Origin: a virus
Lineage: Duplodnaviria > Heunggongvirae > Uroviricota > Caudoviricetes
Length of the DNA: 4,370 bases
IMG/VR virus record: IMGVR_UViG_2671181064_000008
Reading direction: 5' to 3' (one strand)
The position numbers and the translations under genes were made by a program. Of the stretch, positions 42 to 4,310 are shown piece after piece. Position 1 is the first letter of the stretch, and each line of letters begins with the position of its first letter. Under the pieces are notes generated by a model, which did no database searches, had not been told where the DNA came from, and saw only the letters and a list, made by a program, of their open reading frames with translations.

Positions 42-105
42 TATTAGCTCCTTCTGATGCCATTCTATTTCAGGAAGGAGTGTCCGTTAAACTCAGGCTA
101 CCTCA
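1..105 (-). mobile_element. Left end of an IS3-family insertion sequence (IS600-like): terminal inverted repeat, 5' leader and start of orfA; the element continues beyond the window start
   Basis: Reverse complement of 105..77 is TGAGGTAGCCTGAGTTTAACGGACACTCC: it starts with TGA and has GGACAC at positions 21-26, the same layout as the IS3 left inverted repeat. A minus-strand ORF starts just inside it. The exact boundary at 105 is inferred from this motif. Confidence 0.7.
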
Positions 106-161
106 GGTTATTCGCTTCTGGGCATGGGCGGATCAACAAATGATAGACGGTAATGCAGATT

Positions 162-180
162 GTAACGCTCGCGGCGTTAC
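162..180. promoter_or_regulatory. 19-bp dyad GTAACGC-N5-GCGTTAC (iteron/operator-like site A)
   Basis: Exact 7-bp inverted arms gtaacgc (162-168) and gcgttac (174-180). The same architecture recurs at 371-389. Confidence 0.45.
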
Positions 181-370
181 AAAAAGTGCAATAGATCGCA
201 TCACTTTTATGTCTGGTTTTGCTGATGCGTTAATTCAGGTTGGATGGCTGGTCGAAAATGACGGAGGGCTTTCTCTACCTAACTTTGAACGTCATAACGG
301 AAAAAGCTCTAAAAAAAACGGGCGGTTACAAACGAGCGAGTAACAAAAATACGCGAACTGAAACGAAAAG

Positions 371-389
371 GTAACGCTGCCAGCGTTAC
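371..389. promoter_or_regulatory. 19-bp dyad GTAACGC-N5-GCGTTAC (iteron/operator-like site B); arms extend to 9 bp (GTAACGCTG / CAGCGTTAC)
   Basis: Exact inverted arms at 371-377 and 383-389. An extra GCGTTAC half-site sits at 406-412 and a GTTAC/GTAAC pair at 325-344. Confidence 0.45.
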
Positions 390-414
390 ACAAACGGATC
401 AAAAAGCGTTACCA

Positions 415-434
415 GAGGAAGAGGAAGAGGAAGA
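415..434 (+). repeat. (GAGGAA)x3 hexanucleotide tandem repeat encoding a Glu6 acidic linker in the initiator
   Basis: gaggaagaggaagaggaaga read directly; translates EEEEEED in frame 1. Confidence 0.8.
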
Positions 435-788
435 TCTAAATACTGATCTCCCCCTCGCCAAAAACGAGCGTCTAAAAAATTCGAGCCGGAGGCTATTGAG
501 CTGCCCGATTGGTTGCCGGAAACACTCTGGCATGAGTGGGTCCGGTTCAGACAGGCATTGCGAAAACCGATTCGAACGGAGCAGGGCGCTAACGGGGCGA
601 TACGGGAACTGGAAAAATTCCGTCAGCAGGGTTTTACACCTGAGCAGGTGATTCGACACAGCATCGCCAATGAATACCAGGGCCTGTTCGCGCCGAAAGG
701 TGTTCGGCCTGAGACGTTGCTCCGACAGGTTAACACCGTCTCGTTGCCGGACAGTGCGATCCCGCCAGGCTTCAGGGGGTAACGGACC

Positions 789-1230: not shown

Positions 1231-1271
1231 NNNNNNNNNNNNNNNNNNNNNNNNNNNNNNNNNNNNNNNNN
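1231..1271. other. Run of 41 N (masked or gap); content unknown
   Basis: Read directly. Confidence 1.
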
Positions 1272-1287: not shown

Positions 1288-1710
1288 ATGGCGAAACCTT
1301 TTACTCCCGAACAGCGGGAAGAACTGAAGACGCGAATTGTGGAACTCGTGCATCAGGACGGTCGGGTCACGATTCGGCAGTTGTCAGATGAAACAGGTAT
1401 CAGTCGTGCGTCTGTCGGTCGCTTATGCATAGAACTGGTCGCAAGTGGTGATGTATATAATTCTGGCTACGGCTTATTCCCGTCTGAACAGGCTCGCAAG
1501 GACTGGCAAAGCGCCCGCAAAAAACTCTCGAGAGTAAAGGTGAGGAAACCGGTTGTTGTTGATCCGGACCTTATCTGGTCATTACCTGACGGAGAAATAC
1601 GCCGCTACGACAGGCGCCTGAATATAATCTGTCGCGAGTGCCGGAAGAGCGAAGCTATGCAGCGTGTACTGGCTTTCTATCAGGGTAATTTTCAGGAGGC
1701 GATACTGTGA
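1288..1710 (+). CDS. ren: Ren-like protein (homolog of phage lambda Ren, Rex-exclusion resistance); HTH-like N-terminus, 140 aa
   Basis: AGGAGG at 1278-1283, 4 nt before ATG 1288. C-terminal ...ICRECRKSEAMQRVLAFYQG resembles lambda Ren ...FKECRQSAAMKRVLAVYGV as I recall it. The N-terminal region resembles a helix-turn-helix. Its position directly after the P-equivalent gene matches the lambda O-P-ren order. Confidence 0.55.
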   Translation: MAKPFTPEQREELKTRIVELVHQDGRVTIRQLSDETGISRASVGRLCIELVASGDVYNSGYGLFPSEQARKDWQSARKKLSRVKVRKPVVVDPDLIWSLPDGEIRRYDRRLNIICRECRKSEAMQRVLAFYQGNFQEAIL

Positions 1711-2124
1711 ATGAAATTAGCTATCAGGCTTCAATTACCGCTGGCATTCGCATCAAAGGAGAGGAGCATGGAAATAAAACCAGAAGATGAGTTAAGCAAT
1801 ATCGTTTTATTTCCGGTAAAAGAGGATGACCCTCGTAATCAGGTTAATTTTCTTTATGAGCCATCGGAAAGACCATATTGCCATCACGCCTCTGTACGGG
1901 TTGACGAAAAAGAGCGTCAGGTCCGCTGTAAAATCTGCGGTGCGGTTGTGGAGCCGTTTGACTGGATGCTCTCTGTGGCAAAAAGAGAAACCAGACTGGC
2001 AGATGATGTAAGGCTATTGCGCCAGGAGGAACAGGAAAGGCGGAGAAATATAGAAAAGCTGATACAGATTGAGCGTAACGCGAAAGCGCGGATACGCAGG
2101 GCGACAAAATCCAGAACTGAATAA
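1711..2124 (+). CDS. Hypothetical small protein with a Cys/His cluster (C-H-H ... C-x2-C, zinc-ribbon-like) and a basic coiled-coil C-terminus; alternative start at 1768
   Basis: ATG 1711 overlaps the ren-like stop (TGAATG) with AGGAGG 11 nt upstream. In-frame ATG 1768 has a stronger RBS (GGAGAGGAG, about 5-nt spacer) and would give 118 aa. Motif YCHHASV...RCKICG, then an Arg/Glu-rich tail. No recognisable family. Confidence 0.5.
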   Translation: MKLAIRLQLPLAFASKERSMEIKPEDELSNIVLFPVKEDDPRNQVNFLYEPSERPYCHHASVRVDEKERQVRCKICGAVVEPFDWMLSVAKRETRLADDVRLLRQEEQERRRNIEKLIQIERNAKARIRRATKSRTE

Positions 2125-2271: not shown

Positions 2272-2958
2272 ATGACCCCAATAAACATATTTATGACAGT
2301 TGCTGATTTCAAACGGCCCAAATTGGAGCTCCCAAACGGGGCAAACAAACTACTACTGCACTCTTGCTGTGCTCCATGTTCCGGTGAGGTGATGGAGGCG
2401 CTTCAGGCCTCGGGAATCGACTACACCATCTTTTTCTACAACCCGAACATTCATCCTCAGAAAGAGTATTTAATTCGTAAGGATGAGAATATTCGCTTTG
2501 CTGAACAACACGGCGTGCCGTTTATTGATGCTGATTACGACACAGACAACTGGTTTGAACGAGCCAAAGGAATGGAATGGGAGCCCGAACGAGGGATCCG
2601 TTGCACCATGTGTTTTGACATGCGTTTTGAGCGGACAGCGCTGTACGCCGCTGAAAATGGTTTCAGTGTGATCAGCAGTTCACTGGGCATTTCACGCTGG
2701 AAAAATATGCAGCAGGTTAACGACTGTGGGCGGCGAGCCGTCGCGCATTATCCGGGCATGGTGTACTGGGATTATAACTGGCGCAAGCAGGGCGGCTCGT
2801 CCCGTATGATTGAAATCAGCAAGCGCGAAAAATTCTATCAGCAGGAATATTGTGGCTGTGTGTATTCTCTGCGCGATACCAATCTACACCGCAAATCTCA
2901 GGGACGCCCTCTTATCAAAATTGGTCAACTCCACTACGGTAAAGAAGAGAAGGAGTGA
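2272..2958 (+). CDS. queH: Epoxyqueuosine reductase QueH-like protein (DUF208 family, Fe-S enzyme of queuosine tRNA modification)
   Basis: Translation contains [39 protein letters not shown], the conserved Cys motifs and overall pattern I recall for QueH/DUF208. Start is uncertain (ATG 2272 or 2293), neither with a clear Shine-Dalgarno. Confidence 0.75.
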
Positions 2959-3117
2959 TTTTATGGGGCACCTTTCTGATTGATTTCATATTGGCGAGGT
3001 AAGTAGAATGACTGCGGGTGCTTGAGGCTATCTGCTTCAGGCATGAACACCAAAAGGCAGATAGAGAAAAGCCCCAGTTAACATTACGCGTCCGGCAAGA
3101 CGCTTAACATTAATCTG

Positions 3118-3434
3118 NNNNNNNNNNNNNNNNNNNNNNNNNNNNNNNNNNNNNNNNNNNNNNNNNNNNNNNNNNNNNNNNNNNNNNNNNNNNNNNNNNN
3201 NNNNNNNNNNNNNNNNNNNNNNNNNNNNNNNNNNNNNNNNNNNNNNNNNNNNNNNNNNNNNNNNNNNNNNNNNNNNNNNNNNNNNNNNNNNNNNNNNNNN
3301 NNNNNNNNNNNNNNNNNNNNNNNNNNNNNNNNNNNNNNNNNNNNNNNNNNNNNNNNNNNNNNNNNNNNNNNNNNNNNNNNNNNNNNNNNNNNNNNNNNNN
3401 NNNNNNNNNNNNNNNNNNNNNNNNNNNNNNNNNN
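3118..3434. other. Run of 317 N (masked or gap); content unknown
   Basis: Read directly. Confidence 1.
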
Positions 3435-3630: not shown

Positions 3631-3918
3631 ATGAAAATCGAAGAATTGCGTGAAATTTTTAGTGAAAATGGCCTCTATGCTGTGCGCGTTGAGAATGGAG
3701 CGATTGTCAGCCATTGCCGCATTAGATGTTTGCAATCTCAACAAAGGAAGAGCGGTGCTGTGTTATTTTATTTTTGTAATGGACTTCTGACGGACGGTTT
3801 TATTTTGCGTGAGGACGAATTTGTCACATCATTACGGGTTTTGAAAGAGATTGGTTTTAAGGCTGGTTTTCTGCTTTTGCTGAAGAATAAACTCATCTAC
3901 AATCTTGAGCAGGATTGA
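3631..3918 (+). CDS. Hypothetical protein, 95 aa, AT-rich, no recognised family
   Basis: ATG 3631 with GGAAGG 9 nt upstream; uninterrupted ORF; no competing ORF on either strand; downstream of the promoter-like element. Confidence 0.4.
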   Translation: MKIEELREIFSENGLYAVRVENGAIVSHCRIRCLQSQQRKSGAVLFYFCNGLLTDGFILREDEFVTSLRVLKEIGFKAGFLLLLKNKLIYNLEQD

Positions 3919-3956: not shown

Positions 3957-4310
3957 ATGGCACATATACAACTGGTCAAACAAACCTCTTCCGGATTACT
4001 TCTCCCGGCGACGCCGGAGAGTTGCGATTTTCTGCATCAAATCAAAATAGGTGAGTGGATACACGCAGACTTTAAGCGTGTGTGTAACTACGCATTCCAC
4101 AAGCGTTTTTTCAAACTCCTGCAACTGGGTTTCGATTACTGGACTCCGGTCGGTGGGGCGATCACGCCTCGCGAACGAAAACTGGTGTCCGGTTTCGTTG
4201 ATTACCTGTGTGAATCAGTAGGCCGGGAACATACGCCAGCTCTGAGCGAAGCCGCAGAGCAATTGAGGTGTACTGGCAATAGCGGACACTACCATTTGTT
4301 CTTTTTTTAA
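3957..4310 (+). CDS. Hypothetical prophage protein, 117 aa as written; may be truncated by a frameshift in a T7 tract at its 3' end
   Basis: ATG 3957 with GGAG 7 nt upstream (the TTG at 3915 in the ORF track lacks an RBS). Ends TAA 4308-4310 immediately after T7 (4301-4307). One extra T would keep the frame open to the window end. Confidence 0.45.
   Translation: MAHIQLVKQTSSGLLLPATPESCDFLHQIKIGEWIHADFKRVCNYAFHKRFFKLLQLGFDYWTPVGGAITPRERKLVSGFVDYLCESVGREHTPALSEAAEQLRCTGNSGHYHLFFF

What the first reader, a model, noticed from the sequence alone, without database searches (positions are those of the whole stretch)
1288..2124. Ren-like gene translationally coupled to a Cys/His zinc-ribbon-like coiled-coil protein
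The first ORF resembles lambda Ren (which lets lambda escape Rex exclusion) but is about 45 residues longer, with an extra central segment. Its stop overlaps the start of the next ORF (TGAATG), which encodes a small protein with a C-H-H...C-x2-C cluster and a highly charged coiled-coil tail and no family I recognise. Two coupled genes in the anti-exclusion position could be a two-component counter-defence or superinfection-exclusion module.
Basis: inference. Interest (0 to 1): 0.5.

Follow-up and report, generated by a model that had tools for sequence, protein, structure and literature searches.

The report
Two unlinked accessory prophage genes
The two genes are real and very common in E. coli and Shigella prophages, but they are neighbours brought together by recombination, not a coupled two-part system, and the function of each is still unknown.

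Summary
The window is the replication/nin region of a Rac-like lambdoid prophage, 99.7% identical to E. coli CP065613. ORF1 (1288-1710) is a full-length DUF977 protein that falls in the same PHROG as lambda Ren. It has an N-terminal winged helix and the C-terminal Ren motif, and it is 44 residues longer than Ren, mostly through a central insertion. That part of the finding is confirmed.

ORF2 is real but starts at ATG 1768 (118 aa), with its own ribosome-binding site 57 nt after the ORF1 stop. Every homologue starts there.

The conserved metal ligands are C-x-H-x13-C-x2-C. They are followed by a roughly 55-residue helix with a strongly conserved basic end.

ORF2 moves independently of DUF977. 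In E. coli it also follows ea22-like genes, and in Serratia and Klebsiella it follows RusA, NinG or YbcO. A 24-nt relic of the ea22 3' end lies directly upstream of it in this window. Only 4 phage records carry both genes.

ORF2 belongs to a large family (about 1,600 clusters at 50% identity) with no Pfam model, no solved structure and no informative fold match. Verdict: ordinary mosaic prophage cargo, and the two-component module is not supported.

The parts
1288..1710 (+). ORF1: DUF977 / Ren-like protein, 140 aa. Its ribosome-binding site AGGAGG is at 1278-1283.
   Evidence: Pfam PF06163 E 1.1e-33, residues 1-136 against model positions 1-134 of 134. phrog_142 E 2.7e-44. Annotated 'DUF977 family protein' in the 99.7%-identical CP065613 locus. 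The exact protein is on 997 contigs.
1306..1476 (+). ORF1 N-terminal winged helix-turn-helix (residues about 7-63). This is the variable part of the gene.
   Evidence: HTH_24 E 7e-6 and HTH_IclR E 6e-5. The AF2 model has pLDDT 87-92 here, with H7-24, H29-36, H40-53 and a beta wing. Foldseek top hits are IclR/MarR/GntR-type winged helices, all with E at or above 0.007. Most E. coli megablast matches to the gene begin only at nt 141-160.
1516..1620 (+). ORF1 central segment that is absent from lambda Ren (residues about 77-111).
   Evidence: MAFFT gap in Ren. The segment is nearly invariant within DUF977 but is modelled with pLDDT below 50.
1615..1683 (+). ORF1 C-terminal Ren motif (residues 110-132, RLNIICRECRKSEAMQRVLAFYQ).
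   Evidence: BLASTP against lambda Ren: 12 of 20 identical, E 3e-7. hhalign probability 88.6%, E 2.6e-6.
1708..1713 (+). TGA stop of ORF1 abutting an in-frame ATG. This ATG is not the conserved start of ORF2.
   Evidence: The hexamer is polymorphic: TGAATG 16, TGAGTG 25, TGAGTA 5. The 19-residue extension it would add is absent from all homologues.
1740..1763 (+). 24-nt relic of the 3' end of an ea22-like gene (GCTGGCATTCGCATCAAAGGAGAG, which codes AGIRIKGE). It also supplies the ORF2 ribosome-binding site AAGGAG at 1756-1761.
   Evidence: Identical to the last 8 codons of lambda ea22. Exact in 59 of 79 IMG/VR ORF2 loci whatever lies upstream.
1768..2124 (+). ORF2: 118-aa protein with a zinc ribbon and a long helix, family phrog_1621, function unknown.
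   Evidence: phrog_1621 E 5e-56, starting at the residue encoded by ATG 1768. PGAP CDS at 9497-9853 of L001. 148 homologues by word-indexed search and 1,620 clusters at 50% identity by exhaustive HMM search.
1789..1815 (+). ORF2 conserved N-terminal peptide motif E-L-S-N-V/I-V-x-F-P (residues 8-16), inside an acidic, poorly ordered region.
   Evidence: Invariant or nearly invariant columns E8, L9, N11, V13, F15, P16. pLDDT 55-57. Net charge -5 for residues 1-37.
1879..1938 (+). ORF2 zinc ribbon with ligands C38, H40, C54 and C57.
   Evidence: Invariant in the 40-sequence alignment. In the 44 distant homologues C54 and C57 are invariant and C38 and H40 are at least 90% conserved. There is a sub-threshold hit to the TFIIB zinc ribbon PF08271 (E 1.7e-4, 21.5 bits against a cutoff of 29). 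The top Foldseek PDB hit is the TFIIB N-terminal ribbon, E 0.4.
2017..2100 (+). ORF2 conserved part of the long helix (residues 84-111, LRxEExxRRxNIEKLIQIERNAKARIRR); basic.
   Evidence: Most of the invariant columns lie here. E102, N104 and R108 remain at least 90% conserved in homologues of 25-35% identity. pLDDT 90-95. Residues 84-118 have net charge +6 and pI 11.5, and the d positions of the heptad run V70-L77-L84-R91-L98-A105-A112.

Best explanation
These are two independent accessory genes of the delayed-early rightward operon of a Rac-like lambdoid prophage. Modular recombination placed them side by side.

ORF1 is a DUF977 / Ren-like protein. It has a variable N-terminal winged-helix domain and a conserved C-terminal part ending in the Ren motif. 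It sits directly after the DnaC-like helicase-loader gene, as ren sits after P in lambda. I infer that it is a replication-associated DNA-binding accessory factor of the Ren type. Its biochemical activity is unknown.

ORF2 is a separately translated 118-aa protein. It has an acidic flexible N-terminus carrying a short conserved peptide, a C-x-H...C-x2-C zinc ribbon, and a leucine-zipper-like helix of about 55 residues with a strongly conserved basic end. I infer that it forms a coiled-coil dimer and uses the basic helix end and the ribbon to bind a conserved host macromolecule (nucleic acid, or part of the transcription or replication machinery) early in lytic growth, independently of ORF1.

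Shown here: gene boundaries, family membership, independent distribution and the ea22 relic. Inferred: oligomeric state, ligand and biological role.
For: Gene boundaries:
- All homologues start at ATG 1768, and PGAP agrees.
- Similarity in other contexts begins about 28 nt upstream of that ATG.
- No promoter or terminator was detected between the genes, so they are probably co-transcribed.

Independent distribution:
- In 5,426 complete E. coli genomes, DUF977 DNA is found at 5,014 places in 3,617 genomes and ORF2 at 2,135 places in 1,679 genomes. The adjacent pair is found in 888 genomes.
- Among GenBank phage records, 25 carry DUF977, 22 carry ORF2 and 4 carry both.
- Of 79 IMG/VR ORF2 loci, 46 have the DUF977 3' end upstream and 33 have something else, mostly ea22-like genes.
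- In Serratia and Klebsiella prophages the homologue follows RusA, NinG or YbcO and comes just before the antiterminator region. In Enterobacter phage Tyrion and Stx2a phage ArgO145 it follows an Ead/Ea22-like gene.
- tblastn found no DUF977 within 5-6 kb in the Kluyvera, Erwinia, Photorhabdus and Pantoea loci.

Recombination origin: the ea22 relic at 1740-1763.

ORF1: DUF977 and phrog_142 hits, the Ren motif, the winged-helix model, and its position 14 nt after ydaV in the near-identical locus. A bioRxiv paper (10.1101/2021.04.19.439022) calls Ren 'likely involved in DNA replication' and reports two-hybrid contacts of the Rex proteins with O and Ren.

ORF2 architecture: AF2 model, conservation, charge and heptads.
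Against: - The pair is adjacent in about 40-58% of E. coli-type ORF2 copies (888 genomes against 2,135 places; 46 of 79 IMG/VR loci). That is frequent enough that cooperation within Rac-like prophages cannot be excluded from distribution alone.
- In the 16 of 46 alleles with TGAATG, including this window, termination-reinitiation could make a 137-aa isoform.
- Nothing tested here shows DNA, RNA or protein binding by either product.
- Both AF2 models are of only moderate confidence (mean pLDDT 74 and 72).
- No fold or sequence match gives a function for ORF2.
Confidence: 0.72

Rival explanations
1. One reading: the DUF977/Ren-like protein and ORF2 form a two-component counter-defence or superinfection-exclusion module whose expression is translationally coupled.
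For: The genes are adjacent and co-oriented, with no detected terminator between them. The adjacency recurs in 888 E. coli genomes and in 46 of 79 IMG/VR loci. Lambda Ren is historically linked to escape from Rex (established knowledge). Rare chimeric ORFs join ORF2 residues 1-85 to a DUF977 C-terminus (P0040, P0042, P0060).
Against: - The conserved ORF2 start is 57 nt downstream, with its own ribosome-binding site.
- The TGAATG hexamer is not conserved.
- Each gene occurs widely without the other.
- An ea22 gene-end relic separates them, which shows that ORF2 arrived from another context.
- ORF2 is 95-99% identical in 1,596 of the 1,701 matching E. coli records, while for the adjacent DUF977 gene 2,268 of 3,634 records have a best match of only 80-90%, so the two genes have not diverged in step.
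- Neither protein hits any PADLOC defence model.
- The chimeras are single-member clusters with truncated halves, so they look like rearrangement products.
Confidence: 0.08
2. ORF2 is functionally tied to Ead/Ea22-like proteins. On this view it is a detachable alternative C-terminal module of the pro-lysogenic Ea22 family and acts in that pathway, either as a separate subunit or as a fused domain.
For: - ORF2 directly follows, and often overlaps the end of, ea22-like genes in Stx2a phages, in many E. coli prophages and in a 33%-identical homologue in Enterobacter phage Tyrion.
- The 24-nt ea22 end travels with ORF2 in 78 of 79 loci.
- Natural in-frame fusions of the Ea22 N-terminus and coiled coil to ORF2 exist (P0002, P0242, P0043).
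- PMC10834534 reports that Ea22 C-terminal domains are the most variable part and appear to be swapped.
Against: - At most 8 of 5,426 E. coli genomes have a match spanning the fusion junction, and the best one listed was joined from two separate pieces.
- In Serratia, Klebsiella, Hafnia, Cronobacter and Serratia phage Parlo contexts no Ea22-like gene is called or annotated next to the homologue.
- The shared 24 nt could simply be a recombination joint.
- The mechanism of Ea22 is itself unknown.
Confidence: 0.15
3. ORF2 is not a functional gene. On this view it is a chance ORF, or the coding strand is the opposite one (ORF 1844-2221 on the minus strand).
For: A 125-codon ORF overlaps it on the minus strand.
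Against: Protein-level conservation from 96% down to about 25% identity across many genera, with invariant metal ligands and helix residues, and a strong PHROG hit.
Confidence: 0.01

Closest known systems
Lambda Ren (phrog_142, 'Ren-like exclusion protein')
   Same: - It occupies the same position, directly after the helicase-loader gene in the rightward early operon.
- It has an N-terminal winged helix-turn-helix.
- It shares the C-terminal motif xECRxSxAMxRVLAxY.
- Both proteins match phrog_142 over their full length.
   Different: - ORF1 is 44 residues longer, with a central insertion of about 35 residues.
- Direct similarity outside the 23-residue motif is weak: 29% identity in a forced alignment.
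- Ren does not score against Pfam DUF977.
- The upstream loader is DnaC-like here, not lambda P.
- No Rex-related phenotype has been tested.
Pfam DUF977 (PF06163), called 'LygF' in Salmonella and in phage annotations
   Same: ORF1 is a full-length, high-scoring member. It is annotated as DUF977 in RefSeq and as LygF in phage records.
   Different: Nothing differs. The family has no known function. The only paper in the searched library that mentions DUF977 concerns Fic/Doc domains.
phrog_1621, an uncharacterised phage protein family
   Same: ORF2 matches over essentially the whole profile (E 5e-56).
   Different: The family has no name, no Pfam model, no sequence match to any solved structure and no significant fold match.
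TFIIB-type zinc ribbon (PF08271)
   Same: The spacing and beta-hairpin topology of the ORF2 metal site resemble it. It is the best Pfam hit and the best Foldseek PDB hit.
   Different: Both hits are below threshold (21.5 bits against a cutoff of 29; Foldseek E 0.4). One ligand is His rather than Cys. The long helix has no counterpart in TFIIB.
Lambda Ea8.5 (hybrid homeodomain / zinc-finger protein of the exo-xis region)
   Same: It is a small Cys/His protein encoded next to ea22, with a superficially similar 'C-R-H-H-x-x-V-x-V-D-E' stretch.
   Different: Profile comparison shows no relationship (hhalign probability 0.5%).
E. coli K-12 Rac YdaW (reported retron-Sen2 RcaT 'blocker')
   Same: It has the same position after ydaV and an N-terminal winged helix.
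   Different: It belongs to a different family (phrog_630). BLASTP against ORF1 gives E 0.054, so the retron result cannot be transferred to ORF1.

Membership tests
Pfam DUF977 (PF06163) | Full-length match to the family HMM above the gathering score. | tested here: met
   116.5 bits against a cutoff of 22.1, E 1.1e-33, residues 1-136 against model positions 1-134 of 134.
Ren-like (phrog_142 / lambda Ren) | Match to the PHROG profile that also contains lambda Ren. | tested here: met
   ORF1 E 2.7e-44. Lambda Ren E 1.6e-41.
Ren-like (phrog_142 / lambda Ren) | Direct sequence homology to lambda Ren along the whole protein. | tested here: inconclusive
   Only the C-terminal 20-23 residues align significantly (BLASTP E 3e-7; hhalign probability 88.6%). 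The N-terminal winged helices align in MAFFT but without statistical support. The DUF977 profile used was shallow (Neff 1.3).
Ren-like (phrog_142 / lambda Ren) | The gene lies immediately downstream of the replication helicase-loader gene. | tested here: met
   In the 99.7%-identical locus, ydaV ends 14 nt before the ORF1 ATG. In lambda, P overlaps ren. In the window itself the ydaV 3' end is N-masked.
Ren-like (phrog_142 / lambda Ren) | Confers resistance to RexAB exclusion. | not testable with these tools
   This needs plating of ORF1-positive and ORF1-negative phage on rexAB lysogens.
phrog_1621 (ORF2 family) | Full-length profile match, with conserved C-x-H...C-x2-C ligands and the ERNAKARI helix motif. 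| tested here: met
   E 5e-56, residues 20-136 of the 137-aa ORF against profile positions 1-120 of 134. Ligands and motif are invariant.
Translationally coupled gene pair | A stop/start overlap or abutment that is conserved and is used as the start of the downstream gene. | tested here: not met
   The conserved start is 57 nt downstream. The hexamer is TGAATG in only 16 of 46 loci, and TGAGTA in 5 of 46 has no start codon.
Two-component module (conserved gene pair) | Co-occurrence and adjacency of the two genes across relatives. | tested here: not met
   4 phage records carry both genes, out of 25 with DUF977 and 22 with ORF2. 888 genomes have the adjacent pair, against 5,014 DUF977 places and 2,135 ORF2 places. 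No DUF977 lies near homologues of 72% identity or below.
Known anti-phage defence systems (PADLOC) | Significant match to a defence-system protein model. | tested here: not met
   ORF2 has no hits. ORF1 has only weak HTH-type hits, with E at or above 0.0017.
Lambda Ea8.5 | Profile-level homology to Ea8.5. | tested here: not met
   hhalign probability 0.5%.

The most novel reading that the evidence does not exclude
ORF2 would represent a large, unnamed family of early phage proteins with an acidic peptide tail, a CHCC zinc ribbon, a leucine zipper and a basic helix end. There are about 1,600 clusters at 50% identity and no Pfam model. The family would target a conserved host machine or defence. 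In Rac-like prophages ORF2 would cooperate with the upstream Ren-like DUF977 protein, or elsewhere with Ea22-like proteins, as an interchangeable partner.
Probability: 0.1. Interest if true: 0.5.

Novelty: already known. Interest (0 to 1): 0.2.

Why it matters
The finding matters little as it was posed. Both exact proteins are already in public databases on about 1,000 contigs each, annotated as 'DUF977 family protein' and 'hypothetical protein', and the proposed coupled module dissolves on inspection.

Three points of residual value remain:
- The mechanism of Ren is still unsolved. The much more abundant DUF977 relatives, with a variable winged helix and a constant C-terminus, would be a useful comparative handle on it.
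- ORF2 belongs to a large, uncharacterised zinc-ribbon/coiled-coil family with a strikingly conserved basic helix. It is a cheap candidate for host-takeover or counter-defence screens.
- The ea22 relic is a clean example of a short boundary sequence that marks module exchange in lambdoid phages.

Tried and rejected
- Ea8.5 homology of ORF2. I recalled a similar 'CRHH..V.VDE' stretch, fetched the lambda ea8.5 sequence and compared profiles; the probability was 0.5%. Rejected.
- K-12 YdaW as a DUF977 member, which would have imported its retron-blocker phenotype. YdaW is in phrog_630 and BLASTP against ORF1 gives E 0.054. Rejected; my recollection was wrong.
- Sequence search of PDB chains with the ORF2 profiles gave nothing, or only coiled-coil noise.
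- Foldseek of the ORF2 model against PDB and BFVD gave no hit with E below 0.3.
- Foldseek of the ORF1 model gave only generic winged helices.
- The afdb50 library was unavailable.
- Pfam scan of 44 distant ORF2 homologues gave only sub-threshold zinc-ribbon and coiled-coil hits.
- NCBIfam and PADLOC gave nothing useful.
- Genomic context of two very distant ORF2 homologues: the contigs were too short to be informative.
- Scan of viral contigs with the broad alignment: no stretch was conserved enough to search with.
- 'Rosetta-stone' reading of the ORF2::DUF977 chimeras (P0040, P0042, P0060): these are single-member, truncated rearrangement products.
- Ea22N::ORF2 fusions as strong linkage evidence: at most 8 of 5,426 E. 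coli genomes have a match spanning the junction, and the best one listed was joined from two pieces.
- Literature: DUF977 returned one irrelevant paper. 'LygF' is only a locus name in Salmonella genome notes. The key Ren paper (Thomason & Court 2022, PMC9529316) is not held.
- Complex prediction of the pair was not possible with the monomer-only tool.
Full report
**What the window is.** The 4,370-nt window is 99.7% identical to a Rac-like lambdoid prophage in E. coli CP065613 and CP065615. RefSeq annotates this gene order there:
- Cro/CI-type regulator
- YdaT-family protein
- O-like hypothetical protein
- ydaV (DnaC/IstB-like ATPase)
- DUF977 family protein
- hypothetical protein
- QueH
- hokD
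- hypothetical protein
- DUF1367 (NinB-like)
- DUF1364
- DUF1133
- a tRNA cluster
- lysis genes

Pfam and PHROG scans of the window's own ORFs agree with this. The finding therefore lies at the junction between the replication module and the nin region of the rightward early operon.

**Observation, ORF1.**
- ORF1 runs from 1288 to 1710 (140 aa), with AGGAGG four nt upstream.
- It matches Pfam DUF977 over the full model (E 1.1e-33) and phrog_142, 'Ren-like exclusion protein' (E 2.7e-44).
- I fetched lambda ren from NC_001416. It hits the same PHROG over its full length (E 1.6e-41) but no Pfam family.
- Direct comparison finds only the C-terminal motif. BLASTP gives 12 of 20 identical residues (E 3e-7). 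hhalign of a DUF977 alignment against Ren gives 23 columns at 88.6% probability (E 2.6e-6).
- A MAFFT alignment also lines up the N-terminal winged helices. It places about 35 extra ORF1 residues (about 77-111) in the centre, 10 at the N-terminus and a few at the C-terminus.
The caveat is that statistically supported similarity is confined to one motif plus shared architecture and position.
- The AF2 model (mean pLDDT 72) shows a confident winged helix (residues 7-63), a helix at 67-82, a low-confidence stretch at 84-113, and C-terminal helices carrying the Ren motif.
- Foldseek returns only generic IclR/MarR/GntR winged helices.

**Observation, ORF2 and the 'coupling'.**
- The stop TGA (1708-1710) and ATG (1711-1713) abut.
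- This ATG is not the start of the gene. PHROG 1621 aligns from residue 20 of the 137-aa ORF, and PGAP calls the 118-aa form from ATG 1768.
- In an alignment of 29 homologues from Escherichia, Salmonella, Klebsiella, Kluyvera, Yokenella, Serratia, Erwinia, Pluralibacter and Yersinia, every protein begins at the position of ATG 1768 with M-x-T-E-T-E-x-E-L-S-N-V-V-x-F-P.
- ATG 1768 has its own AAGGAG six nt upstream.
- In Stx2a phages, DNA similarity to the window begins only about 28 nt before that ATG.
- Among 79 near-identical ORF2 loci from IMG/VR, 46 have the DUF977 3' end upstream.
- The exact 118-aa protein is on at least 1,000 contigs, against 10 for the 137-aa call.
- Translational coupling through an overlapping stop and start is therefore not a property of this gene pair. 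At most, the TGAATG allele could yield a minor 137-aa isoform.
- No promoter or terminator was detected between the genes, so they are probably co-transcribed.

**ORF2 anatomy.**
- Invariant residues are C38, H40, C54 and C57, and most of the helix segment L84-R111 (LRxEExxRRxNIEKLIQIERNAKARIRR). The N-terminal peptide ELSNVVxFP is nearly invariant.
- The AF2 model (mean pLDDT 74) gives a poorly ordered, acidic N-terminus, two short beta hairpins around the ligands, and one helix from residue 63 to 117 with pLDDT 90-95 over its conserved part.
- The helix has a leucine-zipper-like d-position series (V70, L77, L84, R91, L98, A105, A112). Its last third carries net charge +6, against -5 for residues 1-37.
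- An exhaustive HMM search found 1,620 clusters at 50% identity with E at or below 1e-3, and 262 at or below 1e-10.
- In homologues of 25-35% identity, C54 and C57 are invariant, and C38, H40, R50, L98, E102, N104 and R108 are at least 90% conserved.
- No Pfam family covers these proteins; there are only sub-threshold TFIIB zinc-ribbon hits. No PDB sequence matches, and Foldseek against PDB and BFVD gives nothing below E 0.3.

**Are the two genes a module?**

Distribution does not support it.
- In 5,426 complete E. coli genomes, DUF977-like DNA occurs at 5,014 places in 3,617 genomes and ORF2 at 2,135 places in 1,679 genomes. A match covering at least 80% of the two-gene stretch occurs in 888 genomes.
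- In GenBank phages, tblastn finds DUF977 in 25 records and ORF2 in 22, with 4 in common.

When DUF977 is not the upstream neighbour of ORF2, several other genes are.
- In E. coli it is usually an ead/Ea22-like gene.
- In Serratia and Klebsiella prophages it is RusA, NinG or YbcO, with the antiterminator region downstream.
- In Enterobacter phage Tyrion it is again an Ead/Ea22-like gene.
- In Hafnia phage Meifeng, Serratia phage Parlo and Cronobacter phage JK004 it is an unrelated small early gene.
- tblastn found no DUF977 within 5-6 kb in the Kluyvera, Erwinia, Photorhabdus and Pantoea loci.

The sequences themselves point the same way.
- ORF2 is 95-99% identical in 1,596 of the 1,701 matching E. 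coli records, while for DUF977 2,268 of 3,634 records have a best match of only 80-90%.
- The 24 nt at 1740-1763 (GCTGGCATTCGCATCAAAGGAGAG) are identical to the last eight codons of lambda ea22, which code AGIRIKGE.
- This relic precedes ORF2 in 78 of 79 loci with at most a few mismatches, and is exact in 59, whatever lies further upstream.
- ORF2 therefore reached its place after DUF977 by recombination at an ea22 boundary.
- In 16 of the 80 IMG/VR loci, 649-1,313 nt (in several, an Ea22-like ORF) still lie between DUF977 and ORF2.

**Fusions.**
- Three chimeric ORFs join ORF2 residues 1-72 or 1-85 to a DUF977 C-terminus (P0040, P0042, P0060). They are single-member, truncated products of rearrangement.
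- In-frame fusions of the Ea22 N-terminus and coiled coil to ORF2 exist in E. marmotae Rac-like prophages, where the post-ydaV position is held by a DUF1627 protein instead of DUF977.
- At most 8 E. coli genomes have a match spanning the junction, and the best one listed was joined from two pieces.
- These fusions, the conserved Ea22-to-ORF2 order across 33% identity, and the published variability of Ea22 C-terminal domains (PMC10834534) make an Ea22 connection the best rival explanation. It is not conserved in other genera.

**How it most likely works.**

ORF1:
- It is a Ren-type accessory protein of the replication module.
- It has a DNA-binding winged helix whose sequence is the variable part of the gene. 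Only 87 genomes match at least 80% of ORF1, and most matches start at nt 141-160.
- It also has a constant C-terminal part ending in the Ren motif.
- The literature available here says only that Ren is 'likely involved in DNA replication', that Rex proteins contact O and Ren in two-hybrid assays (bioRxiv 10.1101/2021.04.19.439022), and that Ren is not needed for P-lethality or replicative killing (PMC3640518). The role I assign is therefore inference.

ORF2:
- It is most likely a zinc-stabilised coiled-coil dimer.
- Its basic, highly conserved helix end and ribbon would bind a conserved host macromolecule early in lytic growth.
- This is inferred from architecture, charge and conservation alone; nothing here identifies the ligand.

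**Comparison and novelty.**
- ORF1 is a member of DUF977 and phrog_142. ORF2 is a member of phrog_1621.
- Both exact sequences are abundant in public data, mostly from Shigella and E. coli.
- I tested and rejected a link of ORF2 to Ea8.5, and a link of ORF1 to K-12 YdaW, the reported retron-toxin blocker.
- The finding is ordinary mosaic prophage cargo. The coupled two-component reading is not supported.
- The residual interest is that both families remain functionally dark and that the ORF2 family is large and unnamed.

Noticed in passing
window 2293-2958 (+): A full-length epoxyqueuosine reductase QueH homologue (PF02677, E 1.9e-65; phrog_3217 'unknown function') is encoded in the prophage nin region. 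In the near-identical locus it lies upstream of a four-tRNA cluster. It may be a phage-borne tRNA-modification gene.
   Followed up: partly
window 3016-3116 (+) and N-run 3118-3434: There is an Rfam sok antitoxin RNA hit (58.7 bits against a gathering score of 59, E 1e-11) that is cut by the mask. The masked stretch corresponds to hokD in CP065613, so a hok/sok type I toxin-antitoxin locus sits in the nin region.
   Followed up: partly
window 80-782 (+): The O-like (ydaU-position) replication initiator gene is broken in the window compared with the intact 262-aa CDS of CP065613. An A8 run replaces A6 at 311-318, and 10 nt are deleted after position 448 next to a TCCCCCT repeat. This splits the gene into ORFs 80-343 and 513-782, so the prophage may be replication-defective, or the homopolymer may be a sequencing error.
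   Followed up: partly
window 1231-1271 (N-run): The 41-nt N-run stands for about 303 nt of the ydaV 3' end in the homologous locus. The second N-run (317 nt) stands for about 277 nt. The masks therefore do not preserve length, and coordinates across them are not collinear with the source (offsets taken).
   Followed up: yes
window 1288-1450 against 1450-1710: The DUF977 gene is itself mosaic. Only 87 of 3,617 E. coli genomes match at least 80% of ORF1, and most matches start at nt 141-160. The winged-helix N-terminus is therefore a rare allele joined to a common, nearly invariant C-terminal two-thirds. I did not test whether the allele co-varies with the replication module.
   Followed up: partly
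window 1740-1763 (+): A 24-nt stretch is identical to the last eight codons of lambda ea22. It serves here as intergenic sequence and as the ribosome-binding site of ORF2, and it appears to be a conserved recombination boundary that travels with ORF2.
   Followed up: yes
L110 and L111, 4001-4609 (E. marmotae prophages): A natural in-frame fusion joins the Ead/Ea22 N-terminal coiled coil to ORF2 (202 aa). In these prophages the position after ydaV is held by a DUF1627 protein, not DUF977. At most 8 of 5,426 E. coli genomes have a match spanning the junction.
   Followed up: yes
L105 3753-4313 (E. coli K-12 ydaW): K-12 YdaW was listed as a blocker of the retron-Sen2 toxin RcaT (bioRxiv 10.1101/2020.06.22.160242). 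It occupies the same post-ydaV slot but belongs to phrog_630, not DUF977. Several unrelated winged-helix proteins appear to occupy this slot.
   Followed up: yes
window 3631-3918 (+) and 3957-4310 (+): A small phrog_340 protein of unknown function is followed by a DUF1367 / NinB-like gene. In the window the NinB-like gene is only 117 codons, against 199 aa in CP065613, and the sequence diverges near the window end. It may be truncated.
   Followed up: no
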